Shown piece after piece: positions 16,199 to 28,648 of a DNA stretch of 34,277 nt; the first letter of the stretch is position 1; the number at the start of each line of letters is the position of its first letter. Under the pieces are notes generated by a model. It did not search any database, had not been told where the DNA came from, and saw only the letters and a list, made by a program, of their open reading frames with translations. Source of the stretch: an uncultured Anaerolineaceae bacterium (GTDB taxonomy: Bacteria; Chloroflexota; Anaerolineae; JAAYZQ01); assembly GCA_964452125.1 (NCBI GenBank), contig CAYVLO010000001.1, positions 1 to 34,277 on the forward strand. Reading direction: 5' to 3'. The translations under genes were made by a program, and so were the position numbers.

Positions 16199-17395
16199 AT
16201 GACCATGGATCTGGGCCAGTTGACTCAGATGACCACCTGGCTCGACGAAGAACACCGTCGGGACAAAGCAGAACTGATCCGCTTGCAACAGCAGATCGAG
16301 AGGCAAGAGACCGAGCTGCAAGACCAGAGTCACGTGATCCGCAGCCTGGAAGAGCGGGTGACTGGCCTTCGCAACCAGCTCCTCAAGTATGCCCAACTGG
16401 AAACGTCTCTGGATCAGTTGAAAGAAGAAGTGGTGCAAATGTTCGCCAAGGCCGACGAGCGCCGCCAGCAGGAGAGCCGCGAGGCGGCGCGGGTGCGGGC
16501 CGTGGAGAACGACAACGTTTCGCGCAGCCTGAACGAGATTCGTCGCGAGTTAGAGATCTTGCCGCGTCAGTCTGAGGAACTGGCCCTGCGCAAGGCGGAG
16601 CAAAAGCGGGTGAGCGACATCTTGTTGGTCGTCCAGCAGGACGTCACCGCTCTGTCGCAGGGGGTGGAGAACCGCCTTCGCGGGTTGGCCTTTCTGGAGG
16701 ATGGCCGCCAACAGGACGCCAAGCGGATCGCCCAGCTTCAGCAAGAGACCCTGGAGGCGCTCAAACGGCTCGAGCAGCAGGGGTCACGCATCCAAAGGCT
16801 GGAGGACATCTCGCAACGCCAGGAACGGGACACCGGCGAGCTGAAGCAGTTGATCTCGCAATTGCGAACGTCGCAACGCGAGTTTGTCGAAGCGCAACTC
16901 CTGGAGGCCGAGTCGGTCAAACGCAGCCTGTCCGAGTGGATCGAAGTGATGGAAGCCCACGTTAAAAAAGTCGATCAGTTCACGCTGCAAATCCAAGAGT
17001 TCGCCGAGACATTCCGGGAGGATCGCCAGGTGGTGGAAAGCATTGAGCGCTTTCAGGAGGCGATCAAGCGCGAGCAAACCCAGGTGTCCGAGCTTCAGCG
17101 CCTGGCGGAGGAACGCCAGAAGCGCCAAATGGAGCAATGGAGCGAGGACAACGAAAAGCGGTGGAAAAAGGAGCTTTTGCACTGGGAGCATCAGTGGAGC
17201 GAGCAGGAAAAGCGCAACCAGAGCGTGTTGAATCGATTCGCAACCATTGAGGAGCGCCAGGTCGAAACGCGTACCTGGGTCGACGCCGCCTGGAAGTTTG
17301 TGGAAGCGATGGTGACCTACGAGAGCCAGGAAGCGCGTCGCTGGATGGGCGAAATGACCCGCCTGCTGGAAGAAAAGCCCAAAAAAGAGAAATAG
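16199..17395 (+). CDS. Hypothetical all-helical coiled-coil protein (E/R/Q-rich, no TM)
   Basis: GGAGG lies 8 nt upstream of the ATG. The 398-aa product has a heptad-like charged composition throughout. I recognise no enzymatic motif. Confidence 0.6.
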   Translation: MTMDLGQLTQMTTWLDEEHRRDKAELIRLQQQIERQETELQDQSHVIRSLEERVTGLRNQLLKYAQLETSLDQLKEEVVQMFAKADERRQQESREAARVRAVENDNVSRSLNEIRRELEILPRQSEELALRKAEQKRVSDILLVVQQDVTALSQGVENRLRGLAFLEDGRQQDAKRIAQLQQETLEALKRLEQQGSRIQRLEDISQRQERDTGELKQLISQLRTSQREFVEAQLLEAESVKRSLSEWIEVMEAHVKKVDQFTLQIQEFAETFREDRQVVESIERFQEAIKREQTQVSELQRLAEERQKRQMEQWSEDNEKRWKKELLHWEHQWSEQEKRNQSVLNRFATIEERQVETRTWVDAAWKFVEAMVTYESQEARRWMGEMTRLLEEKPKKEK

Positions 17396-17449: not shown

Positions 17450-19372
17450 GTGCGCGTAATTGGAACCGCCGGGCATGTGGATCATGGCAAATCTTCGCTG
17501 GTCCGCGCCCTGACCGGCATCGATCCCGACCGGCTCAGAGAAGAAAAAGAGCGCGAGATGACCATCGACCTGGGATTTGCCTGGCTCTCTCTGCCGGGCG
17601 GAGAGCGGGTGGGTATCGTGGACGTCCCTGGGCACAAGGACTTTATCAAGAACATGCTCGCGGGGGTGGGGGGCATTGATGCGGCCCTTTTTGTCGTCGC
17701 CGCCGACGAAGGGGTCATGCCCCAGACACGGGAACACCTGGCCATTCTCGACCTGCTGGGCGTGCCCGGCGGCGTGGTGGCCTTGACCAAGATCGACATG
17801 GCCGAGGACGAGGACTGGGTGGATCTGGTGGAGGCTGACCTGTTGGAGGTCTTGGATGGCACCGTGCTGGAAGGGGCGACGGTGGTGCGCTGCTCCTCCC
17901 GCACAGGCGACGGGCTGGGGGCCGTGGTCGAGGAATTGGAGCGCTACCTGGCCCAAAATGCGCCGCGGCGCGACGTGGGGCGGCCTCGTTTGCCGGTGGA
18001 TCGGGTATTCACCATCCCCGGATTCGGCACGGTGGTCACCGGTACCTTGAGCGACGGTTCCTTTTCAGTGGGTCAAGAGGTCGAAATTCAGCCCTCGGGC
18101 ATCAAGACACGAATTCGGGGATTGCAAACCCACAAGGAAAAGATCGAGCAAGCCGTTCCGGGCAGCCGGGTGGCCATCAATCTGACCGGTCTGAGCAAAG
18201 AAGAGGTCCGGCGCGGCGATGTGGTGACGTCGCCCGGCTGGTTGCAGCCGACGACGATGGTCGATTGTCAGCTTCGATACCTGGCCGATGCCCCTCAGAG
18301 CCTGAAGCACAACGCCCAGGTCGATTTTTTCTGCGGCGCATCCGAGGCGCGGGCCCGAGTGCGGCTGTTGGGCGTCCAGGTTTTGGAGCCGGGCGAGCAA
18401 GGTTGGGTTCAATTACACCTGGAGGAGCCGGTCGCCTTGGTCAAAGGCGACCGATTCATCATCCGCCAGCCCTCGCCCAGTCTCACGGTGGGCGGCGGGA
18501 CGGTGATCAATCCCTTCCCTGGACGCCGCCATCGGCGCTTCCGACCCGACGTGATCGAGAAGTTGGAGACCCAGGCCCACGGCAGTCCCCAAGAGGTGCT
18601 GTTGCAAGATCTGGAACGCCGGCAACCGTGCGAGGTCCGCGAGCTTTTGGAGCGGAGCAGCATGGACCGCGCCCAGGCCCAGGAGGCGCTTCAGGCGCTG
18701 GTGGCCGACGATCAGATCTATGTGCTGGATGCCGGGTCCGGCAGCGGGCCCGAGGCGCGCATCGCCGATCCGATGTTCCTGATCACGCGTTCGGGTTGGG
18801 GTGCGCTCCGTGAACGGCTGGAAGCCCTGCTAAAGGCGTACCACGACCAGTATCCCCTGCGGATTGGAATGCCGCGCGAAGAGGTCAAGAGCCGCTTGCA
18901 GCGCTACATCCCCAAGCTGACCCCCCGGTTGTTCAACGAGATCATAGGCCGGGGAATCAGGCACGATTGGCTGGTCGAATCGGGTGGGGTGCTCCACCTC
19001 TCCTCTCACCAGGCGCGCTTTACCGACCGACAACAGCAATTGGTGGATCGCCTCCTGGCCGATCTCAGCCGCAGTCCCTACCTGACCCCCTCGGTGGCTC
19101 AGTGTGAGGAGCAGGTGGGCGCCGATGTGGTCAATGCGTTGGTGGAGCAGGGCCGTTTGATCAAGCTGGGCGATGATGTGCTGTTCTTGACCGAGACCTT
19201 GGAAGAGATGCGCGACCGGGTTGTGACCTATCTCCGGGAGCACGAGACGATCACTGTGGCCCAGATCCGCGATCTCTTTGGCACCAGCCGCAAGTATGCC
19301 CTGGCCCTGGCTGGGTACCTGGACGAAAAGCGCATTACGCGCCGCGTGGGCGATGATCGCCTGCTGCGCTAG
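17450..19372 (+). CDS. selB: Selenocysteine-specific translation elongation factor SelB
   Basis: The G domain reads IGTAGHVDHGKSSL, DVPGH and TKID. It resembles E. coli SelB as I recall it (REHLAILDLLG, DRVFT..G.GTVVTG). The long C-terminal extension (640 aa in total) is typical of the SECIS-binding winged-helix domains. Confidence 0.9.
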   Translation: MRVIGTAGHVDHGKSSLVRALTGIDPDRLREEKEREMTIDLGFAWLSLPGGERVGIVDVPGHKDFIKNMLAGVGGIDAALFVVAADEGVMPQTREHLAILDLLGVPGGVVALTKIDMAEDEDWVDLVEADLLEVLDGTVLEGATVVRCSSRTGDGLGAVVEELERYLAQNAPRRDVGRPRLPVDRVFTIPGFGTVVTGTLSDGSFSVGQEVEIQPSGIKTRIRGLQTHKEKIEQAVPGSRVAINLTGLSKEEVRRGDVVTSPGWLQPTTMVDCQLRYLADAPQSLKHNAQVDFFCGASEARARVRLLGVQVLEPGEQGWVQLHLEEPVALVKGDRFIIRQPSPSLTVGGGTVINPFPGRRHRRFRPDVIEKLETQAHGSPQEVLLQDLERRQPCEVRELLERSSMDRAQAQEALQALVADDQIYVLDAGSGSGPEARIADPMFLITRSGWGALRERLEALLKAYHDQYPLRIGMPREEVKSRLQRYIPKLTPRLFNEIIGRGIRHDWLVESGGVLHLSSHQARFTDRQQQLVDRLLADLSRSPYLTPSVAQCEEQVGADVVNALVEQGRLIKLGDDVLFLTETLEEMRDRVVTYLREHETITVAQIRDLFGTSRKYALALAGYLDEKRITRRVGDDRLLR

Positions 19373-19393: not shown

Positions 19394-19756
19394 ATGAAAC
19401 CCACCCTCGACGGCTCGAGGTTTGGCTCGATTGTCATCAATGGCGAGACCTTCAAACACGACGTACTCATCCGTCTGGATGGACGGGTGAGCAAGCGCCA
19501 GAAAGAGCTCTCGAAAGCAGTGTACGGCACGTCGCACATTCTGTCACTGGCCGAAGCTCAGCACGTCTATGAACAGGGGGCCGCCCGGCTCATTGTCGGC
19601 GCCGGCCAATTTGGCACCGTCAAACTCGCGGACGACGCGGCCGCCTTCTTTGAGGAAAATCAGTGTCTGGTGGACCTGTGGCCCATGAGCCAGGCAATGG
19701 AGGCCTGGAATCGGGCCGAGGGACCCATCATTGGCTTGTTTCATATCACTTGTTAA
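19394..19756 (+). CDS. Mth938-like (DUF498) domain protein
   Basis: It is 120 aa and ends in the family-typical GLFHITC. GGAGGG lies upstream, and the gene starts 21 nt after the selB stop. Confidence 0.65.
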   Translation: MKPTLDGSRFGSIVINGETFKHDVLIRLDGRVSKRQKELSKAVYGTSHILSLAEAQHVYEQGAARLIVGAGQFGTVKLADDAAAFFEENQCLVDLWPMSQAMEAWNRAEGPIIGLFHITC

Positions 19757-19783
19757 CGACCGATTGGAGAGGAGGTGCAAAGT

Positions 19784-20002
19784 ATGACCGTCACCCTGTA
19801 CAGCAAGCCGGGGTGTCCCCATTGCGCTGGAGCCAAAGATGATCTGGCGCAACGGGGCATCGCCTATACCGAATACAACGTCCAAGCCGACAAGGTCCGG
19901 CTGGAGGAGATGTTGAGCCTGAATGGGGGGCGGCGCCACGTGCCGACTCTCGTTCAGGACGGCAAGGTCACCATTGGCTTTAACGGCTATTGAGGGGTAT
20001 GA
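19784..20002 (+). CDS. Glutaredoxin-like protein (CPHC), probable selenoprotein with TGA 19991-19993 read as Sec (C-terminus GYUGV)
   Basis: The RBS GGAGAGGAGG precedes ATG 19784. It has the thioredoxin fold: LYSKPGCPHC, a cis-Pro at HVPTL and GKVTIGF. In frame the 3' end reads TGA GGG GTA TGA, followed by a SECIS-like hairpin, and selB lies upstream. The part up to 19990 is secure. The 3-codon extension is the uncertain part. Confidence 0.6.
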
Positions 20003-20003
20003 A

Positions 20004-20022
20004 GGTCCGCCGGCGGCGGGCC
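20004..20022 (+). promoter_or_regulatory. Candidate bacterial SECIS hairpin
   Basis: GGUCCGCC / GGCGGGCC forms an 8-bp stem (one G.U pair) with apical loop GGC. The stem starts 10 nt after the candidate Sec TGA. No T-run follows it, so it does not look like a terminator. Confidence 0.45.
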
Positions 20023-20058
20023 AAGCCCAAGAGCCCCTTTCTCAAAAGGGGCAGAGAC

Positions 20059-20089
20059 GAGCCATCGGTTAGTGCCGGTGGCTCTTTTT
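20059..20089 (+). terminator. Intrinsic terminator of the selB / Mth938 / glutaredoxin-like unit
   Basis: GAGCCATCGG (20059-20068) / CCGGTGGCTC (20075-20084) forms a 10-bp stem, followed by TTTTT. Confidence 0.6.
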
Positions 20090-20152
20090 ATGGGAAAACC
20101 GAGTGCTCCCTGCCCCCGCCTGGCGGGCAGACTTGACGCCGGTAACCGCAGG

Positions 20153-21340
20153 CTAGGACTCGGACTTGCCAAAGATCCCCTTGATGGCTCGATCCAGCAG
20201 ATCAAAGATGAGGTTTTCCTTAAAGCCGCTGGCCCAGGCCAGAGGATAGACGATCCAGGGTGTGACGGTGGTCAGCGTGCCGCTGTCGGCCTGCAACCCC
20301 GAGGGCAACAGGCTCAGGGTCAGCAGGAGTTGAAAGCTCATGTACACAGTGGCCCCCAGCACCAGGCCGAGGAACGGCTTGGCGACGTAGGTCAGGTTGT
20401 ATTGGGGATCGAAATCGCGCTGCGATACGTGGCGGAGCAGGCTATAGAGCACGGCGACCACCCCGCCGATGCCGCCCCACACCATGGCCCGCAAAAAGAT
20501 GTCCAGGCTGCCCACCACGGGCTCCAATCCAACCGGCGCGATCAGGTCGTGGAACCAGCGATGGTTCAGAAGGATGAGCAGCGCCAGGTAGACGAACCCC
20601 CATAGAAATCCCCAAAGGGTGATCAGCCAGGCATATTTGTGGGCGCCGCGCCTGCTTTCGGCCACCCGTTTCAGGCGGGCTTGGACCTGTTCGAGATAGT
20701 ATTCGGCCTGGGGAATCCGGGCGGCATCGCGGCGGAGGACAATGTCGCGGGCCTTGAGGAGCTGGTTGTAGCAGTCGGTGGCAATGTCCTCGTTTTCGCC
20801 CACCTGGTCGGTCACCCCTTGGTACAGGTCCGAGATCTCGCCGTCCAGTTGCTGGAGGCGCTCGGCCCCCAACCATTCCAGGAGCTGCTGCCGTTCCTGT
20901 TGGGTGAGCGAGGATTCGGGCAACTCGAGTTTTGCGATCCTCTCGCGCTCCTGAATGTCGTAGGTGCCCGGGGATGCCAGGCTGCTTGCCCGGACACGGC
21001 TGCTCGCGTGGGACAGGGATTTCCCCGACACCAGATCGTCCATCTGGGGGGGCGGCGCTTTGAACAGAAAAGCTTCTTCGCTCGGGGGCTCCTCGTCCCA
21101 ACTGGCTTCCAGCGGTGGAAGGGGGCCCCGAGTCGTTGGCGGGGTCGTGATGGTTGGCCGGGTCGGGCGAAAAGCCGTCTCAATGGCTGGCGTGATGGGC
21201 AGGTCCGCCTTGACGCGGACCGGCTCGGCTTCGGACGCCTTGGGTGAGGGTGAAGGGGTTTGCTGAGGGCTTGGAGTGATCCGCCTCAGCGGTGTGATCT
21301 TGGGACTGTGTCCTTGTGGAACCGACATCGCATTGGCCAT
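20153..21340 (-). CDS. Hypothetical membrane protein: Pro/Ser/Thr-rich N-terminus, helical middle, about 4 TM C-terminal domain
   Basis: ATG 21340 is preceded by GGGGAGG. The TM helices include AWLITLWGFLWGFVYLALLILL and AMVWGGIGGVVAVLYSLL. I recognise no family. Confidence 0.6.
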   Translation of the reverse strand: MANAMSVPQGHSPKITPLRRITPSPQQTPSPSPKASEAEPVRVKADLPITPAIETAFRPTRPTITTPPTTRGPLPPLEASWDEEPPSEEAFLFKAPPPQMDDLVSGKSLSHASSRVRASSLASPGTYDIQERERIAKLELPESSLTQQERQQLLEWLGAERLQQLDGEISDLYQGVTDQVGENEDIATDCYNQLLKARDIVLRRDAARIPQAEYYLEQVQARLKRVAESRRGAHKYAWLITLWGFLWGFVYLALLILLNHRWFHDLIAPVGLEPVVGSLDIFLRAMVWGGIGGVVAVLYSLLRHVSQRDFDPQYNLTYVAKPFLGLVLGATVYMSFQLLLTLSLLPSGLQADSGTLTTVTPWIVYPLAWASGFKENLIFDLLDRAIKGIFGKSES

Positions 21341-21429
21341 TGGTTTTACCTCCCCTGCTGCTGTGCGGATCCGCACCGGTGAATGCCCAGAGAGCGCAGC
21401 AACATAGTGCGAATGATGTATCCCAATAG

Positions 21430-21593: not shown

Positions 21594-21731
21594 ATGCCGA
21601 AACGAACCTGGCAGCCCAAAGTACGGCGGCGCAAGCGCGTGCACGGCTTTCGGGCGCGAATGAAAACCAAGGGCGGACGTCTCGTTCTGAAGGCGCGGCG
21701 CCTGCGAGGCCGCCGTCGCTTGACAGTATAA
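21594..21731 (+). CDS. rpmH: 50S ribosomal protein L34 (below the ORF-track length cutoff)
   Basis: My own translation is [45 protein letters not shown], followed by a stop. GGAGAGG lies upstream. Confidence 0.9.
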
Positions 21732-21778
21732 GATGTGTGACGCCTGGCCCGTGGCCTGCTGCATGGGCCAGCCACGTG

Positions 21779-22132
21779 ATGCAAAAAAAGTATCGTTTGC
21801 GCTCGAGCGCTGACTATGACCGTGTACGAACAGAGGGTCAAAGCTGGCCCCATCGCCTGATGGTGATCTCGACACGAGCCAATGGCCTGGATCGCAGCCG
21901 GTTTGGCTTTGTGGTCGGGCGGCGGATGGGCAATGCGGTGCAGCGCAACCGGATCAAGCGGCGAATGCGCGAGTCGGTACGGGTGAGAATCCAACAGGGT
22001 GAGATTGCTTCGGGAAGGGATGTCGTGTTGATCGCACGGCGCCCTATTCAGCAGGCGTCTTTTCATCAGGTCGACCAAGCGATCGGCCTGATGTTGCGTC
22101 GGGCAGGCTTGCAAAAGGCTGCCCAACAGTAG
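21779..22132 (+). CDS. rnpA: Ribonuclease P protein component
   Basis: It begins [16 protein letters not shown] and carries the RNR motif [13 protein letters not shown]. It lies directly after rpmH. ATG 21779 is preferred over the ORF-track GTG 21737. Confidence 0.85.
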
Positions 22133-22145
22133 TGGGCGGAGTGTC

Positions 22146-22355
22146 GTGAAATACCTGCTGTTGGGAGTGATTCGCCTCTATCAGGCGACGCTATCTCGAG
22201 TTTTACCTCCTGCTTGCCGGTTCACTCCTTCCTGTTCTCACTATGCATATGAAGCGGTTGATAAATATGGGACGATCAAAGGAGGGTGGCTGGCGGTCAA
22301 GCGAGTGGCTCGCTGCCACCCTCGTAACCCAGGTGGGTACGATCCCGTTCCCTGA
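22146..22355 (+). CDS. yidD: Membrane protein insertion efficiency factor YidD
   Basis: Motifs are [14 protein letters not shown] and [14 protein letters not shown]. The start is GTG. Confidence 0.85.
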
Positions 22356-22388
22356 TGCAAGCGGGTTACCCTTCAAGGAGGCCATGTT

Positions 22389-23525
22389 TTGAGCCAAGGG
22401 AAGCGTGTGCTAGGAGCAATCATAGGATTGCTTTTGCTAAGTTTGATGTTGTCCTCGTGCGGAGCGACGCCGGTGGCAGAGAATTGGCCAGGGTTGACCC
22501 AGGCCGACGGCACGATCTTTGCCATTAGTGGCGCGCCTCAACAGGTCTATATGCTCGATGCGGAAACGGGGACGCAAAAGGGGACCTTTATTCCCCAGGG
22601 CGACCATCGGGGCATTGCCTATTGGAGCCCGGTGGCGGTGGGGAATGGGTTGGCCTATGTCGGATTTTCCGACTCGGTGTCGGGCATTGCCGGCCTGTAC
22701 GCTTTTGACCCAGAGACCGGGCAGGAACAGTGGAATATTCCAGCCAAGAGCTTGATCATCCCCGCGCCGGTCTATGCGGACGGCACCGTTTACTTTGGCT
22801 CGTCCGATGGCCTGGCTTATGCCGTGGATGTCGAGTCCCACACTATCAAGCCTGGCTGGCCCTTTCAGACCGGTGAAGCGATTTGGGGCTCGCCCCTGGC
22901 AGTGGGCAACCGGGTGTATGTGGCCTCTCAGGATCATTTTCTGTATTGCCTGAATGCCGAAAATGCCCAGGTGATTTGGAAGGTGGAGGTGGGGGGGGCC
23001 ATGGCCTCTCAGCCCACACTCGATGAAAAACGGGGCGTCGTCTATGTCGGCGCCTTCGATGGCAAGGTATACGCCATCAAGGCCGACAGTGGAGAGATCA
23101 TCGACGGCTTTGAGTTTCGGGCCGAGAACTGGATCTGGTCCAAAGTGCTATTGAATGAGGACGTGCTCTATGTCACGTCGCTGGATGGCAAGTTGTACGC
23201 CCTGGAGCCCGAGACGGGCGCTGTGGTTCCCCCTTATCCCTTTGATACCAGCACGGTAGGGGACAGGGATGACCGGATCCGCGCGGCGCCTGTCAAGGCC
23301 GGCGAGTCGGTCATCCTGGCGACGGAGAATGGCCGGGTCATTTCGGTCAAGGGCGGGCAGCTCCAATGGTCCTGGCCGGGCGGAACCCCGACAGCAGGCA
23401 TCCTGACGAGGCCTGTGCTGTCGGGCCAGACCGTCTATGTCATCCTTCAGAACGGGCAGGTGCAAGCCCTGAACGCCGAAAACGGTGGGCAGGGATGGGC
23501 CTTTACGCCGCCGCAGGCCCAATAG
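22389..23525 (+). CDS. PQQ-like (BamB-like) beta-propeller repeat lipoprotein
   Basis: The signal peptide carries the lipobox LMLSSCG. Repeated blocks of the form G.VY.GS.DG.LYA. occur throughout (VYFGSSDGLAYAVD, VYVGAFDGKVYAIK, LYVTSLDGKLYALE). AAGGAGG lies 7 nt upstream of TTG 22389. Confidence 0.75.
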   Translation: MSQGKRVLGAIIGLLLLSLMLSSCGATPVAENWPGLTQADGTIFAISGAPQQVYMLDAETGTQKGTFIPQGDHRGIAYWSPVAVGNGLAYVGFSDSVSGIAGLYAFDPETGQEQWNIPAKSLIIPAPVYADGTVYFGSSDGLAYAVDVESHTIKPGWPFQTGEAIWGSPLAVGNRVYVASQDHFLYCLNAENAQVIWKVEVGGAMASQPTLDEKRGVVYVGAFDGKVYAIKADSGEIIDGFEFRAENWIWSKVLLNEDVLYVTSLDGKLYALEPETGAVVPPYPFDTSTVGDRDDRIRAAPVKAGESVILATENGRVISVKGGQLQWSWPGGTPTAGILTRPVLSGQTVYVILQNGQVQALNAENGGQGWAFTPPQAQ

Positions 23526-23601
23526 TAGGAGGGCGGGAGCAGCCAGCGGGTTGGCTCATCGGCTCGGAAAATCTAGCGGCGCTCGACGTGTGTAGGAGGT
23601 T

Positions 23602-24510
23602 TTGTTGCCAGGTATTACTGACGTTTGGACTGTGTTGATCCTGCGGCCCATGCTCAATGTGCTGCTGTGGTTATATAGCGTGTTGGGTGGGCAATTCTGG
23701 CTGGCGATCATCATCTTTACGGTGGTCATCCGGTTGTTGATGCAGCCGTTGATGTTGCCTCAGCAGCGCTCGGCGAAAAAGATGCAAGAGGTTCAACCGC
23801 GGCTGCAGGAAATCCAAAAGAAATATGCCAAAGATCGGGAAAAGCTGGCCCAGGAGCAGATGAAGCTCTACAAAGAGGCCGGGGTCAATCCCATGGGTGG
23901 GTGTCTGCCCATGCTGATTCAATTCCCCATCTGGATTGGGTTGTACCAGTCGATCATTCAGGCCCTCGGCCATCAGCCGCTGCAACTGCTCAACCTGTCC
24001 AAGAACATCTACCCCTTCCTGCAGTCACTGTGGGCTGCGGTTCCGCTCAACCGGTTCTTCCTGGGAATGGACCTGAGCCTGACGCCCCAACAACTGGGAG
24101 GATTGACGTTTGCGCTGCCGGTTTTGGTGGCGTTTACGTCGTGGTTGCAGACCCGCATGACCACGCCGCCTACCGGTGGAAGCGATCAGAGCGCATCGAT
24201 GAACCAGAGCATGACCCTGATGATGCCTTTGATGTTTGGCTTCTTTAGCCTAAACTTTTCGACCGGTCTTTCGCTCTATTTTGTGGTGTCCAATGTCATT
24301 GGCATTGTCACCCAGGGGTTCATCTCGGGGTGGTCGGGTCTCATGTTCTGGAAGAATCTGAGCCTGGGAAGTATTCTTGGCGGTGGGGCCAAGCCCGCTG
24401 CTGCACCCCAGCAGACGAGCAAGCGCACAGAAGCCAAAGCCGTAGAGGGTCAGAAGGGAATGCAGAGTGAAAGCAAGAACCGAAGAAAGAAGCGTCGTCG
24501 CAAGCGGTAA
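23602..24510 (+). CDS. yidC: YidC/Oxa1 membrane protein insertase (short form with a basic C-terminal tail)
   Basis: Motifs are AKKMQEVQPRLQEIQKKY and NPMGGCLPMLIQFPIWIGLY. The tail is KNRRKKRRRKR. AGGAGG lies upstream, and the start could be TTG 23602 or TTG 23605. Confidence 0.85.
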   Translation: MLPGITDVWTVLILRPMLNVLLWLYSVLGGQFWLAIIIFTVVIRLLMQPLMLPQQRSAKKMQEVQPRLQEIQKKYAKDREKLAQEQMKLYKEAGVNPMGGCLPMLIQFPIWIGLYQSIIQALGHQPLQLLNLSKNIYPFLQSLWAAVPLNRFFLGMDLSLTPQQLGGLTFALPVLVAFTSWLQTRMTTPPTGGSDQSASMNQSMTLMMPLMFGFFSLNFSTGLSLYFVVSNVIGIVTQGFISGWSGLMFWKNLSLGSILGGGAKPAAAPQQTSKRTEAKAVEGQKGMQSESKNRRKKRRRKR

Positions 24511-25237
24511 AACGGTCCAGGACGCCATTGAGAACGGCCTCAAGATGCTCGAAGTGGGCCGCGATCAGGTGGAACTCGAAATCATCAGCGAGGGAAGTCG
24601 TGGGGTATTGGGCTTTGGGGCCGAGAATGCCCGGGTGCGGTTGGTTCTCAATCTGCCTGCCCAGCCAGAACCAGAACCAGAGCCTTTGCCAGAGCCCTGG
24701 GTCCAACCTGTCTTGAGCGACAGTCGGAAACCAGAACCCGAGGAGGCCCCATCAACCCAAGAATCTGCCGACGCAGCAGCGGCGGGGCAAGAGATCCTTT
24801 CGGATTTGCTCAAGCTGATGGGCATTCGCGCCTCTGTGGAGATCGAGGTAGGAGAGGGTTTGGCAGAGGAAGGCCAGCCGGCGCCTATGGTCCTGAATAT
24901 CACCGGCGACGATCTGGGCATCCTGATCGGCCGGCGGGGTGAGACGCTGAGGACCTTGCAGTATCTGGTTCGGCTCATGGTCAGCCATCGCCTCAAGCAC
25001 TGGACCGATCTTGTGGTGGATGTGGAGCATTATTGTCTGCGCCGTCGTCAGGCTCTGGAAAGCCTGTCAGAGCGGATCGCCGACCGGGTTGCCAAAGAGC
25101 GGCGGCCCCAAGCCCTGGAACCGATGCCTTCCTACGAACGGAGGATCGTGCACATTACGTTGCGCAACCACCCCAAGGTGACCACCCAGAGCGTGGGTGA
25201 TGGAGAGCGGCGCAAAGTCACGATCGTCCCGCGGTAG
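24467..25237 (+). CDS. jag: Jag/KhpB RNA-binding protein (Jag_N, KH, R3H)
   Basis: The three domains read SGKTVQDAIENGL (Jag_N), GDDLGILIGRRGETLRTLQYL (KH) and LEPMPSYERRIVHITL (R3H). GTG 24467 is the only start upstream of the Jag_N block, which gives a 44-nt overlap with yidC. Confidence 0.8.
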   Translation: MKARTEERSVVASGKTVQDAIENGLKMLEVGRDQVELEIISEGSRGVLGFGAENARVRLVLNLPAQPEPEPEPLPEPWVQPVLSDSRKPEPEEAPSTQESADAAAAGQEILSDLLKLMGIRASVEIEVGEGLAEEGQPAPMVLNITGDDLGILIGRRGETLRTLQYLVRLMVSHRLKHWTDLVVDVEHYCLRRRQALESLSERIADRVAKERRPQALEPMPSYERRIVHITLRNHPKVTTQSVGDGERRKVTIVPR

Positions 25238-27242: not shown

Positions 27243-27268
27243 CCCCTTGAGTGTGAGGTTTGTCGAAC

Positions 27269-28648
27269 ATGCTTAGCCTGGACGATACCATTGCCGCCAT
27301 TTCCACACCGGTGGGCGAGGCGGGTATTGGTATCGTGCGCATGACCGGTCCGGAGGCGGCGCCGATCCTGCAGAGCCTATTTATTCCCGCCTCGGGCGAC
27401 GGACTCCTGCCCCGGCTGTTGCACTATGGTCATATCGTGGATCCCGCTGCCGGTGAAAGGGTGGACGAAGTGTTGGCCGTTTATATGCCGGCGCCACGCA
27501 CCTACACCCGTCAGGATGTGGTCGAAGTCCACGGACACGGGGGGATCGTCGCCCTGCGACGCATTCTGGGCCTTTGCTTGGGCCAGGGGGCGCGCCTGGC
27601 AGAACCGGGAGAGTTCACCGCCCGGGCTTTTCTCAACGGCCGCCTGGATCTGGCCCAGGCCGAAGCCGTTCTGGACATCATCCAGGCCAAGACGGAAACG
27701 TCGTTGCAGGCGGCGGTGGAGCAGCTCTCCGGGCGCCTTTCGGTACAGGTGCGCCAGATCCGCGAGGTTCTGCTCGGCGCTCTGGCTCATCTGGAAGCGA
27801 GCATCGATTTTGCCGAGGATGAGATCCCGGAACGCGATATTGTCCTGGACCTGGAGCAGGCAGCCGAGGGGTTGCAGGGGCTGCTGGCCCAGGCCGAACG
27901 GGGTATCATCTATCGCCAGGGGGTGCGGGTGGCCATTGTAGGCCGGCCTAACGTGGGTAAATCCAGCCTGCTGAACCGGCTCTTGCGCGTCAACCGGGCC
28001 ATCGTCACTGACATCCCCGGCACCACACGGGACACATTGGAGGAGACCATCAACTTGCAGGGCATCCCGCTGGTGCTGGTGGATACAGCGGGCATCACGG
28101 CCCAGGCCACCGACCCGGTGGAGCGCCTGGGTGTGGAGCGAAGTCGCTCGGCGCTGGCCGGGGCGGATCTGGTGCTGCTCATGGTGGATGCCACCCAGCC
28201 TCTGACCCAAGAGGACCGGGCCATTGCCTCCCTGGTTGAGGGCCAGACGACCCTTCTGGTGGCCAACAAGATCGATTTGCGAGCCGAAAGCGCCCCACTC
28301 CCCGAACGGGCGTCGCTGGACATTCGCACGGCGAGGACCGTGGGCGTTTCGGCCTTGACCGGCGAGGGGTTGCACGATCTGGAGAGCGCCATCGTCGAGA
28401 CCGTGTTCTCGGGGCAGGTGACGGCCTCCGAAGCGCCGGCAGTTACCAATCCGCGTCACAAAGAAGCGCTGGCCCGCGCCCTGGTTCACGTACACGACGC
28501 GCAGGAAGCTCACCGCTCGGGCGTGTTGCCCGACCTGGTATCCATTGATCTATCGGCCGCAGTCCATCTGTTGGGTGAGATCACAGGCCAGACGGCCAGT
28601 GAGGACCTGGTGGACCGGATATTTGGCAGCTTTTGTGTGGGGAAATAA
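27269..28648 (+). CDS. mnmE: tRNA modification GTPase MnmE
   Basis: The N-terminus has DTIAAISTP, the G domain has GRPNVGKSSLLN / DTAG / NKID, and the C-terminus is FCVGK. ATG 27269 is preferred over TTG 27260. Confidence 0.9.
   Translation: MLSLDDTIAAISTPVGEAGIGIVRMTGPEAAPILQSLFIPASGDGLLPRLLHYGHIVDPAAGERVDEVLAVYMPAPRTYTRQDVVEVHGHGGIVALRRILGLCLGQGARLAEPGEFTARAFLNGRLDLAQAEAVLDIIQAKTETSLQAAVEQLSGRLSVQVRQIREVLLGALAHLEASIDFAEDEIPERDIVLDLEQAAEGLQGLLAQAERGIIYRQGVRVAIVGRPNVGKSSLLNRLLRVNRAIVTDIPGTTRDTLEETINLQGIPLVLVDTAGITAQATDPVERLGVERSRSALAGADLVLLMVDATQPLTQEDRAIASLVEGQTTLLVANKIDLRAESAPLPERASLDIRTARTVGVSALTGEGLHDLESAIVETVFSGQVTASEAPAVTNPRHKEALARALVHVHDAQEAHRSGVLPDLVSIDLSAAVHLLGEITGQTASEDLVDRIFGSFCVGK

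What the first reader, a model, noticed from the sequence alone, without database searches (positions are those of the whole stretch)
19784..20022. Glutaredoxin-like ORF probably continues through TGA as selenocysteine: ...GFNGY-U-G-V-stop with a SECIS-like hairpin
The ORF track stops this CPHC thioredoxin-fold protein at TGA 19991-19993.

What the sequence shows:
- In frame the sequence continues GGG GTA and then a second TGA (20000-20002). The residue encoded by the first TGA would therefore sit three positions from the end.
- Ten nt after that TGA begins an 8-bp GC-rich hairpin (20004-20022) with a G-first 3-nt loop.
- The loop lies about 20 nt from the TGA, which fits the bacterial SECIS geometry as I recall it (hairpin just 3' of the UGA, a G early in the apical loop).
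- The hairpin has no T-tract, and the real terminator is 40 nt further on.
- selB lies in the same transcription unit.

Established knowledge and recollection:
- A Sec near the C-terminus on a flexible tail is the thioredoxin-reductase solution (GCUG-stop).
- I recall a described glutaredoxin-like (seleno)protein family defined by a U/C-x-x-stop C-terminus ('Uxx-star').

This is most likely a selenoprotein missed by naive ORF calling rather than a new family. It is still the clearest recoding signal in the window.
Basis: partly seen in the sequence, partly recalled or inferred. Interest (0 to 1): 0.7.

Follow-up and report, generated by a model that had tools for sequence, protein, structure and literature searches.

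The report
Missed selenocysteine tail on small glutaredoxin
A 69-residue glutaredoxin-like gene almost certainly reads its first TGA as selenocysteine, giving a 72-residue protein ending Sec-Gly-Val; this is a real recoding event that gene callers miss, but it belongs to the already curated "UXX-star" selenoprotein family.

Summary
The gene has ATG at 19784, a CPHC motif, TGA at 19991-19993, then GGG GTA and a second TGA at 20000-20002. An 8-bp hairpin lies at 20004-20022 with loop GGC. A T-tract terminator lies at 20059-20084, and a full-length selB lies two genes upstream.

With Sec written as Cys, the 72-residue protein matches NCBIfam NF041212 (Uxx-star glutaredoxin-like (seleno)protein) at 102.4 bits against a cut-off of 66. 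It matches NF041114 (UXX-star family 1) at 80.8 bits against 72. Both matches are end to end.

Nineteen related loci from Anaerolineae genome bins and metagenomes all keep TGA, two codons and a stop. Changes in the two codons fall mainly at third positions, and the final stop varies between TGA, TAG and TAA.

All twenty loci carry a hairpin whose loop begins 16-21 nt after the TGA. Six of eight pairs show compensatory changes. The window's hairpin meets the four published bacterial SECIS constraints.

Taken alone, the hairpin is weak evidence: 9% of TGA triplets in this GC-rich window are followed by a qualifying hairpin.

selA, selD and tRNA-Sec are not in the window. The biochemical role is unknown.

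Verdict: a true selenoprotein of a known family, and of low novelty.

The parts
17450..19372 (+). selB, the selenocysteine-specific elongation factor (640 aa), two genes upstream on the same strand
   Evidence: TIGR00475 scores 344.1 bits against a cut-off of 242. Pfam finds GTP_EFTU, Beta-barrel_SelB, SelB-wing_2 and SelB-wing_3. No convincing terminator lies between it and the glutaredoxin gene: the only + strand match before 20059 is a weak 5-bp stem inside selB at 19255-19271.
19394..19756 (+). 120-aa DUF498 / Mth938-like ORF between selB and the selenoprotein gene. It ends in an invariant FH[IV]TC followed by a stop.
   Evidence: PF04430 scores 26.7 bits, below Pfam's gathering score of 33. 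It sits in the same position in 9 related loci. Its membership in the system is inferred from gene order only.
19770..19775 (+). Shine-Dalgarno AGGAGG, 8 nt before the ATG
   Evidence: Read directly from the sequence.
19784..20002 (+). Full coding sequence of the UXX-star glutaredoxin-like selenoprotein: 72 aa, MTV...GFNGY-U-G-V, final stop included
   Evidence: NF041212 102.4 bits (cut-off 66) and NF041114 80.8 bits (cut-off 72), matched end to end. PF00462 56.7 bits. The homologue alignment supports ATG 19784 as the start.
19814..19825 (+). Codons of the CPHC redox motif (Cys11-Pro-His-Cys14)
   Evidence: Read. C11, P12 and C14 are invariant in 36 sequences.
19991..19993 (+). UGA read as selenocysteine (residue 70)
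   Evidence: TGA sits at this column in 20 of 20 loci. Cys occupies the equivalent position in the more distant homologues L092 and L095.
19994..19999 (+). Gly71 and Val72 codons (GGG GTA), translated only if the UGA is decoded
   Evidence: Gly is kept in 16 and Val in 18 of 20 loci, with variation mainly at third codon positions.
20000..20002 (+). The true stop codon (TGA here)
   Evidence: A stop lies exactly two codons after the Sec codon in 20 of 20 loci. It is TGA, TAG or TAA.
20004..20022 (+). SECIS hairpin: 8 bp, loop GGC, lying entirely in the 3' untranslated region
   Evidence: Folds. It has -14.3 kcal/mol, a spacing of 18 nt and G in the first loop position. Six of eight pairs covary.
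19995..20028 (+). Possible extended SECIS, adding an outer GGGU/GCCC helix around the hairpin
   Evidence: Seen in the minimum-free-energy fold of the window only. Its conservation was not tested.
20059..20090 (+). Intrinsic terminator ending the transcription unit: 11-bp stem followed by TTTTTAT

Best explanation
The gene at 19784-20002 encodes a 72-residue glutaredoxin-fold selenoprotein of the UXX-star family, with CPHC near the N-terminus and a Sec70-Gly-Val C-terminus.

Proposed mechanism:
1. It is probably transcribed with selB and a DUF498 gene. The transcript ends at the terminator at 20059-20084.
2. When the ribosome reaches UGA 19991, SelB carrying Sec-tRNA(Sec) is held by the 3'-UTR hairpin at 20004-20022. 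The loop GGC begins 18 nt past the UGA. SelB inserts selenocysteine.
3. Two more codons are read, and translation stops at UGA 20000. That codon is only 9 nt from the loop, which is too close to be recoded under the SECIS spacing rule.
4. The protein has the secondary structure b1-a1-b2-a2-b3-b4 and lacks the usual C-terminal helix. Sec therefore sits on a short coil just after strand b4, a region that lines the active site in glutaredoxins.
5. From there Sec could form a selenenylsulfide with the CPHC cysteines, or act with them as a ligand.

Shown here: the sequence layout, family membership, conservation, hairpin covariation, presence of selB, and the fold.
Inferred: co-transcription, actual Sec insertion, the geometry of the tail, and the chemistry.
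For: - Layout.
- Family membership: NF041212 scores 102.4 against 66 and NF041114 scores 80.8 against 72, both matched over 1-70 of 70 profile positions. Removing the three tail residues costs 7.2 bits in each model.
- All 35 database homologues are truncated at the same column. Public gene calls on near-identical contigs give 69 aa.
- Conservation: 20 of 20 loci have TGA, two codons and a stop. Sixteen read U-G-V; the others read U-D-V, U-S-V, U-T-V, U-G-F and U-S-I. The Gly codon is GGG, GGC or GGA and the Val codon is GTA, GTG, GTC or GTT. The final stop is TGA, TAG or TAA.
- Sequence 3' of the hairpin is not conserved.
- Hairpin: in all 20 loci the loop begins 16-21 nt after the UGA. Loops are GGC, GGU, GUG, GUC, CGUGN or AGUUA.
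- Covariation: 80.7% of cells pair, against at most 48.7% for slid registers. Six of eight pairs change on both sides. None of 500 shuffles reaches the covariation score.
- The published bacterial SECIS constraints (PMC13188914) are met.
- selB is full length with both winged-helix RNA-binding domains. It is linked to the gene in nine related loci in the homology search (L001, L002, L004, L006, L081, L083, L084, L088, L089); near-identical contigs L146-L149 show the same gene order, with selB domains on record for L146 and L147.
- The Cys-form homologues L092 and L095 end C-x-x-stop and have no hairpin at that spacing.
- Fold: the AlphaFold2 model has pLDDT 89.6 and ends in coil after b4. The best PDB matches are glutaredoxins and NrdH, with query-normalised TM-scores of 0.77-0.85.
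Against: - There is no direct evidence of Sec insertion.
- selA, selD and tRNA-Sec are absent from the 34-kb window and from the fetched flanks, so the full machinery is unverified.
- A hairpin of this kind is not rare by chance here: 9% of TGA triplets pass the criteria.
- No Rfam family matches.
- The window's loop is GGC, lacking the GU seen in most relatives.
- No Cys form was found within the close Anaerolineae clade. The Sec/Cys pairing rests on two more distant sequences.
- The loci are related, so the shuffle controls overstate independence. There are about 17 distinct hairpin sequences.
Confidence: 0.92

Rival explanations
1. TGA 19991 is an ordinary stop. The product is the 69-residue glutaredoxin, and the hairpin is a generic GC-rich 3'-UTR structure that stabilises the mRNA, pauses transcription or forms part of the terminator.
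For: Gene callers give 69-70 aa for every homologue. Qualifying hairpins follow 9% of TGA triplets in this window. There is no Rfam hit. The 69-aa form already passes both NCBIfam cut-offs, at 95.2 and 73.6 bits.
Against: This reading does not explain three things. Two sense codons and a stop are kept in frame after the TGA in 20 of 20 loci, with variation mainly at third positions and interchangeable final stops. The family models extend over those residues. The hairpin keeps a spacing of 16-21 nt with compensatory changes, while the sequence after it is free to vary. The link to selB would also be a coincidence.
Confidence: 0.04
2. Both products matter. UGA 19991 mostly terminates, giving a working CPHC glutaredoxin. 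The Sec-Gly-Val form is a minor isoform that depends on selenium supply, so the gene reports selenium status within the selB operon.
For: The 69-aa form holds the complete predicted fold and the CPHC motif. From general knowledge, bacterial Sec insertion competes with release factor 2 and is often inefficient. The gene lies in the selB transcription unit.
Against: Strict conservation of the tail shows that the extended form is under selection, and nothing shows that the short form is. Other family members are not linked to selB (L003 and L005).
Confidence: 0.1
3. The hairpin acts mainly as a SelB-binding regulatory site at the 3' end of the selB operon rather than to decode UGA 19991. This would resemble the SECIS-like element that controls selAB in Escherichia coli, which I cite from memory.
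For: The hairpin is of SECIS type and lies in the same transcript as selB.
Against: The same hairpin follows the same UGA in loci with no selB within 6 kb (L003 and L005). It therefore tracks the glutaredoxin gene, not selB. This reading also fails to explain the conserved tail codons.
Confidence: 0.03

Closest known systems
UXX-star glutaredoxin-like (seleno)proteins: NCBIfam NF041212, with family 1 NF041114, family 2 NF041211, family 3 NF047338 and the HUGP/GUXX-star fusion NF045501. They are listed in the 2026 review PMC13188914, which cites Zhang & Gladyshev 2008 and Haft & Tolstoy 2025.
   Same: A small glutaredoxin fold of about 70 residues with an N-terminal CxxC motif and Sec three residues from the C-terminus (U-x-x-stop). 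The window protein passes the NF041212 and NF041114 cut-offs over the whole profile.
   Different: The review's table gives motif UxxT and two Sec residues for the family 1 exemplar. The window protein has CPHC and one Sec. It exceeds the NF041114 cut-off by only 8.8 bits. The selB-DUF498 gene order seen here is clade-specific. I could not check whether it has been described, because Haft & Tolstoy 2025 is not held.
Bacterial SECIS elements: the E. coli fdhF/fdnG type and the consensus model of Zhang & Gladyshev, as summarised in PMC13188914
   Same: A stem-loop directly 3' of the UGA. The loop has 3-9 nt with G[G/U] at its start. The upper stem has 4-16 bp. The loop lies 16-37 nt from the UGA. 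The energy is at most -7.5 kcal/mol. All four constraints are met.
   Different: The element lies wholly beyond the stop codon, in untranslated RNA, because only two codons follow Sec. The window's loop is GGC rather than the GU-containing loops of most relatives. Binding by SelB is untested.
C-terminal GCUG tail of mammalian thioredoxin reductase, including its expression in E. coli with a SECIS placed after the stop codon (Arner and colleagues, from memory)
   Same: Sec lies near the C-terminus on an unstructured tail, and the SECIS sits 3' of the stop codon.
   Different: There is no Cys next to Sec (the sequence is GY-U-GV). There is no flavoprotein domain and no homology. This is an analogy of design only.
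Small dithiol glutaredoxins, NrdH-redoxins and YruB-type proteins (PDB 3ic4, 4fiw, 3grx, 7c10, 3zij)
   Same: The fold matches, with query-normalised TM-scores of 0.77-0.85, and so does the CPxC motif. Sequence matches reach E = 1e-7.
   Different: These proteins carry a C-terminal helix after b4. Here that helix is replaced by the coil NGY-U-GV. The invariant LNGGRRHVPT motif is specific to this family.

Membership tests
NF041212 Uxx-star family glutaredoxin-like (seleno)protein | Profile score at or above the curated cut-off of 66 bits, over the full profile | tested here: met
   102.4 bits, residues 3-72 on profile positions 1-70 of 70. Without the tail the score is 95.2 bits.
NF041212 Uxx-star family glutaredoxin-like (seleno)protein | C-terminus of the form U/C-x-x-stop | tested here: met
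   TGA GGG GTA TGA at 19991-20002. The same layout is seen in 19 related loci.
NF041212 Uxx-star family glutaredoxin-like (seleno)protein | Glutaredoxin / thioredoxin fold with an N-terminal CxxC motif | tested here: met
   PF00462 scores 56.7 bits. The AlphaFold2 model has pLDDT 89.6. Foldseek finds glutaredoxin and NrdH matches with TM-scores around 0.8. CPHC is conserved (C11, P12 and C14 invariant, H13 in at least 90% of sequences).
NF041114 UXX-star selenoprotein family 1 (equivalog) | Profile score at or above the curated cut-off of 72 bits | tested here: met
   80.8 bits, or 73.6 bits without the tail. The margin is small.
NF041114 UXX-star selenoprotein family 1 (equivalog) | Sec content of the exemplar: the review table lists motif UxxT and two Sec residues | tested here: inconclusive
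   The window protein has CPHC and a single in-frame TGA. The exemplar WP_258313609.1 could not be inspected, and the table entry may describe a different subgroup.
Bacterial SECIS (consensus model) | Apical loop of 3-9 nt, upper stem of 4-16 bp, G in the first two loop positions, 16-37 nt between UGA and loop, and energy of at most -7.5 kcal/mol | tested here: met
   Loop GGC (3 nt), 8 bp, spacing 18 nt, -14.3 kcal/mol. Criteria taken from PMC13188914.
Bacterial SECIS (consensus model) | Structure conserved among orthologues | tested here: met
   Six of eight pairs change on both sides, and no shuffle out of 500 reaches the observed covariation score. All 20 loci have a hairpin with the loop 16-21 nt after the UGA; L081 (-6.0) and L094 (-3.4 kcal/mol) fall short of the -7.5 kcal/mol threshold as ungapped stems.
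Bacterial SECIS (consensus model) | Binds SelB and directs Sec insertion | not testable with these tools
   This needs a binding assay or a reporter assay.
Sec-decoding trait of the host | selB present with its SECIS-binding domains | tested here: met
   TIGR00475 scores 344 bits. PF09106 and PF09107 are present.
Sec-decoding trait of the host | selA, selD and tRNA-Sec present in the genome | not testable with these tools
   None is in the window, and no tRNA is found in 21 related loci.
Thioredoxin-reductase-type GCUG C-terminus | Adjacent Cys-Sec pair on the tail of a pyridine-nucleotide disulfide oxidoreductase | tested here: not met
   The tail reads GY-U-GV, and the protein is a 72-aa glutaredoxin fold.

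The most novel reading that the evidence does not exclude
In this Anaerolineae clade, selB, a DUF498 protein with an invariant C-terminal Cys, and the UXX-star selenoprotein may form a dedicated module. The Sec tail and the terminal Cys of DUF498 would act as a selenium/sulfur relay that handles selenium for Sec synthesis, or that senses selenium supply for the selB operon. On this reading the gene would not be a general redox protein.
Probability: 0.1. Interest if true: 0.55.

Novelty: already known. Interest (0 to 1): 0.25.

Why it matters
For annotation, all 35 close homologues in the large protein collection, and the public gene calls on near-identical contigs, stop at the UGA. This clade is therefore systematically recorded without its selenocysteine.

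For biology, it is a clean natural example of a bacterial SECIS that works from untranslated RNA. It shows Sec placed on a three-residue tail beside a CxxC site. In Anaerolineae the gene is tied to selB.

None of this changes current understanding. The family and the mechanism are already curated.

Tried and rejected
- Rfam at gathering thresholds over the whole window gave no match, so no curated RNA family covers this element.
- A covariance model built from 19 hairpins found only its own training sequences among the window and 43 loci. There is no second element of this type in the window. The model missed the more divergent L096 and the acidobacterial relatives.
- ARAGORN found no tRNA or tRNA-Sec in the window or in 21 loci.
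- NCBIfam and Pfam scans of 29 window ORFs found no selA or selD.
Only the 69-aa form was modelled, so the distance between the tail and CPHC is not measured.
- Haft & Tolstoy 2025, the likely primary description of the family, is not held.
- I tested whether DUF498 is a general partner of the selenoprotein and rejected the idea. The 120-aa DUF498 family has 584 members. In a MAG labelled Rhodocyclales it lies in an unrelated neighbourhood.
- I looked for a shared neighbourhood across all UXX-star loci and found none. L003 has a NarI-like protein and a CCG iron-sulfur protein upstream. L005 has a methyltransferase.
- I considered whether the second TGA is also Sec and rejected it. It is TAG or TAA in 7 of the 20 loci.

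Full report
**1. What is in the sequence**

The + strand carries ATG at 19784, eight nt after AGGAGG (19770-19775). The reading frame is MTVTLYSKPGCPHCAG...VTIGFNGY and it reaches TGA at 19991-19993. In the same frame come GGG GTA and a second TGA at 20000-20002.

Ten nt after the first TGA starts the hairpin GGTCCGCC-GGC-GGCGGGCC (20004-20022). It has 8 pairs, one of them U-G. This hairpin is part of the minimum-free-energy fold, which adds an outer GGGU/GCCC helix and a second, separate hairpin at 20033-20052.

No T-run follows the first hairpin. A terminator-like stem at 20059-20084 followed by TTTTTAT closes the unit.

**2. Is the hairpin more than chance?**

Taken alone, barely. I scanned all 879 TGA triplets on both strands of the window with the published bacterial SECIS constraints. 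Seventy-eight (9%) have a qualifying hairpin. Seven (0.8%) have one at least as stable as the -14.3 kcal/mol seen here. The whole 76-nt segment folds only 1.8 standard deviations better than shuffled sequence. The case has to rest on comparison with other loci.

**3. Family**

With Sec written as Cys, the 72-residue protein matches two NCBIfam models over all 70 profile positions:
- NF041212, "Uxx-star family glutaredoxin-like (seleno)protein": 102.4 bits against a cut-off of 66.
- NF041114, "UXX-star selenoprotein family 1": 80.8 bits against a cut-off of 72.

Cutting off the three tail residues lowers both scores by 7.2 bits, so the models include the U-x-x positions.

Pfam sees a glutaredoxin domain (PF00462, 56.7 bits). 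An AlphaFold2 model of the 69-residue part has pLDDT 89.6. Its secondary structure is b1-a1-b2-a2-b3-b4 followed by coil. The nearest solved structures are glutaredoxins and NrdH-redoxins, with query-normalised TM-scores of 0.77-0.85 and sequence matches down to E = 1e-7. Those proteins have a C-terminal helix where this one has NGY-U-GV.

**4. Comparative evidence for read-through**

All 35 close homologues in the protein collection end at the same column, at G[YFHS]. Public gene calls on near-identical contigs give 69 residues. This is what a conserved in-frame TGA would produce.

I fetched DNA for 6 genome loci (L001-L006, Anaerolineae/Chloroflexia genome bins) and 13 metagenome loci (L081-L091, L094, L096). 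Every one has TGA, two sense codons and then a stop.
- The tail is U-G-V in 16 of the 20 loci, counting the window. The others read U-D-V, U-S-V, U-T-V, U-G-F and U-S-I.
- The Gly codon is GGG, GGC or GGA. The Val codon is GTA, GTG, GTC or GTT.
- The closing stop is TGA, TAG or TAA.
- Variation falls mainly at third codon positions, with the stop fixed in place, while sequence beyond the hairpin is unconserved. This pattern marks translated codons.

Two more distant homologues end ...G-x-G-C-x-x-stop, with Cys at the Sec position (L092, L095). They have no hairpin at the corresponding spacing. No Cys form turned up within the close clade.

**5. The hairpin as a SECIS**

In all 20 loci a hairpin follows the TGA, with its loop starting 16-21 nt after the codon. 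Stems have 4-8 bp and loops read GGC, GGU, GUG, GUC, CGUGN or AGUUA.

On the alignment of the 20 loci:
- The 8-pair helix is paired in 80.7% of cells, against at most 48.7% for slid registers.
- Six of eight pairs show changes on both sides.
- None of 500 shuffles reaches the observed covariation score.

The loci are related, with about 17 distinct hairpin sequences, so these controls overstate independence.

The consensus model quoted in the 2026 review (PMC13188914) asks for four things. These are a 3-9 nt loop on a 4-16 bp stem, G in the first two loop positions (mostly G[G/U]), 16-37 nt between UGA and loop, and at most -7.5 kcal/mol. The window's element has a 3-nt GGC loop, 8 bp, 18 nt spacing and -14.3 kcal/mol, so it meets all four.

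The second UGA is 9 nt from the loop, outside that range. It is replaced by TAG or TAA in 7 of the 20 loci, so it is the true stop. The SECIS therefore lies entirely in untranslated RNA.

Rfam has no matching family. A covariance model of the element finds nothing else in the window.

**6. Machinery and context**

The ORF at 17450-19372 is selB. It scores 344 bits on TIGR00475 and carries the beta-barrel and both C-terminal winged-helix domains.

Between selB and the selenoprotein gene lies a 120-aa DUF498/Mth938-like ORF. Its Pfam score of 26.7 bits is below the gathering score. The intergenic gaps are 21 and 27 nt, and the only terminator-like match in between is a weak 5-bp stem inside selB at 19255-19271. 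Co-transcription is likely but inferred.

The order selB, DUF498, UXX-star recurs in L001, L002, L004, L006, L081, L083, L084, L088 and L089. The near-identical contigs L146-L149 show the same gene order, with selB domains on record for L146 and L147. It is absent from L003 and L005, where the neighbours differ.

The DUF498 family is large, with 584 hits. In a genome bin labelled Rhodocyclales it lies elsewhere. The linkage is therefore clade-specific.

No selA, selD or tRNA-Sec lies in the window or in the fetched flanks. Their presence in the genome is untested.

**7. How it most likely works**

The steps below are inferred except where marked as shown.
- SelB with GTP and Sec-tRNA(Sec) binds the 3'-UTR hairpin.
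- The ribosome arrives at UGA 19991 with the hairpin at the mRNA entrance. The 10-nt spacer resembles the 11 nt reported for the minimal E. coli SECIS, which I cite from memory.
- Sec70 is inserted, Gly71 and Val72 follow, and release occurs at UGA 20000.
- Shown: the protein is a glutaredoxin fold cut short after b4.
- From established knowledge of glutaredoxin structures, the loop after b4 borders the CPxC active site and the cis-Pro loop. Here the cis-Pro loop is the invariant LNGGRRHVPT.
- A five-residue coil carrying Sec could therefore reach Cys11 or Cys14. It could form a selenenylsulfide that the dithiol resolves, or provide a third soft ligand.

**8. Rival readings**

- An ordinary stop with an unrelated hairpin cannot explain the conserved translated tail, the fixed spacing or the covariation. 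I give it 0.04.
- A mostly terminating UGA with a minor, selenium-dependent long isoform is compatible with the data and does not contradict the Sec call. I give it 0.1 as the dominant mode.
- A purely regulatory SelB-binding site is contradicted by loci that keep the hairpin without a nearby selB. I give it 0.03.

**9. Known or new**

The family, its U-x-x-stop signature and the SECIS model are curated and reviewed.

The only element I could not find described is the selB-DUF498-UXX-star gene order in Anaerolineae. The likely primary paper (Haft & Tolstoy 2025) is not available here.

Interest is low, at 0.25. The practical point is that this clade is uniformly truncated in public protein sets.

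Noticed in passing
window 19394-19756 (+); also L001, L002, L004, L006, L081, L083, L084, L088, L089: A 120-aa DUF498/Mth938-like ORF always sits between selB and the selenoprotein gene. It ends in an invariant FH[IV]TC followed by a stop, so Cys is the last residue. The family has 584 close members. In a genome bin labelled Rhodocyclales it is not next to selB or a glutaredoxin.
   Followed up: partly
L007-L019, L021, L029, L034, L039, L042, L056 (mostly Acidobacteria/Blastocatellia bins): A sister group ends GW[EL]GRG-U-[TS]-[VI]-[HYR]-(D)-stop. Sec is therefore 4-5 residues from the end rather than 3. In the seven loci folded (L007, L008, L010, L015, L017, L019, L039) a hairpin follows the TGA; five of them (L008, L010, L017, L019, L039) show 5-nt loops (CGUGN, CGGGC, AGUUG). 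The GxGU motif matches what the review lists for UXX-star family 2.
   Followed up: partly
L093 76-292: A homologue reads ...VGWQ-TGA-RGCPV-stop. It has an in-frame TGA three codons before a Cys that occupies the usual Sec position. This could be a second recoded site, a sequencing error or a pseudogene.
   Followed up: no
window 20033-20052 (+): A second 8-bp hairpin (GCCCCTTT-CTCA-AAAGGGGC) lies between the SECIS and the terminator, with no T-run. A similar sequence is present in L001. The other loci show no conserved sequence at this position; whether they carry a hairpin there was not examined.
   Followed up: no
L003 3338-5640: In one Anaerolineaceae bin the UXX-star gene is not near selB. 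It follows a NarI-like membrane protein (PF02665) and a CCG/4Fe-4S protein (PF02754), a DsrMK/HdrD-like thiol-disulfide reductase pair. This may point to a redox partner.
   Followed up: partly
window 16199-17395 (+) and 20153-21376 (-): Two sizeable ORFs flank the unit and have no Pfam or NCBIfam match. One is a 398-aa protein rich in charged residues, just upstream of selB and in conserved gene order in L001, L002, L004 and L089. The other is a 407-aa convergent ORF.
   Followed up: no
window 21594-25237 (+): The classic rpmH-rnpA-yidD-yidC-jag cluster, interrupted by a PQQ-like beta-propeller gene (22389-23525) between yidD and yidC. mnmE follows further downstream at 27260-28648.
   Followed up: no
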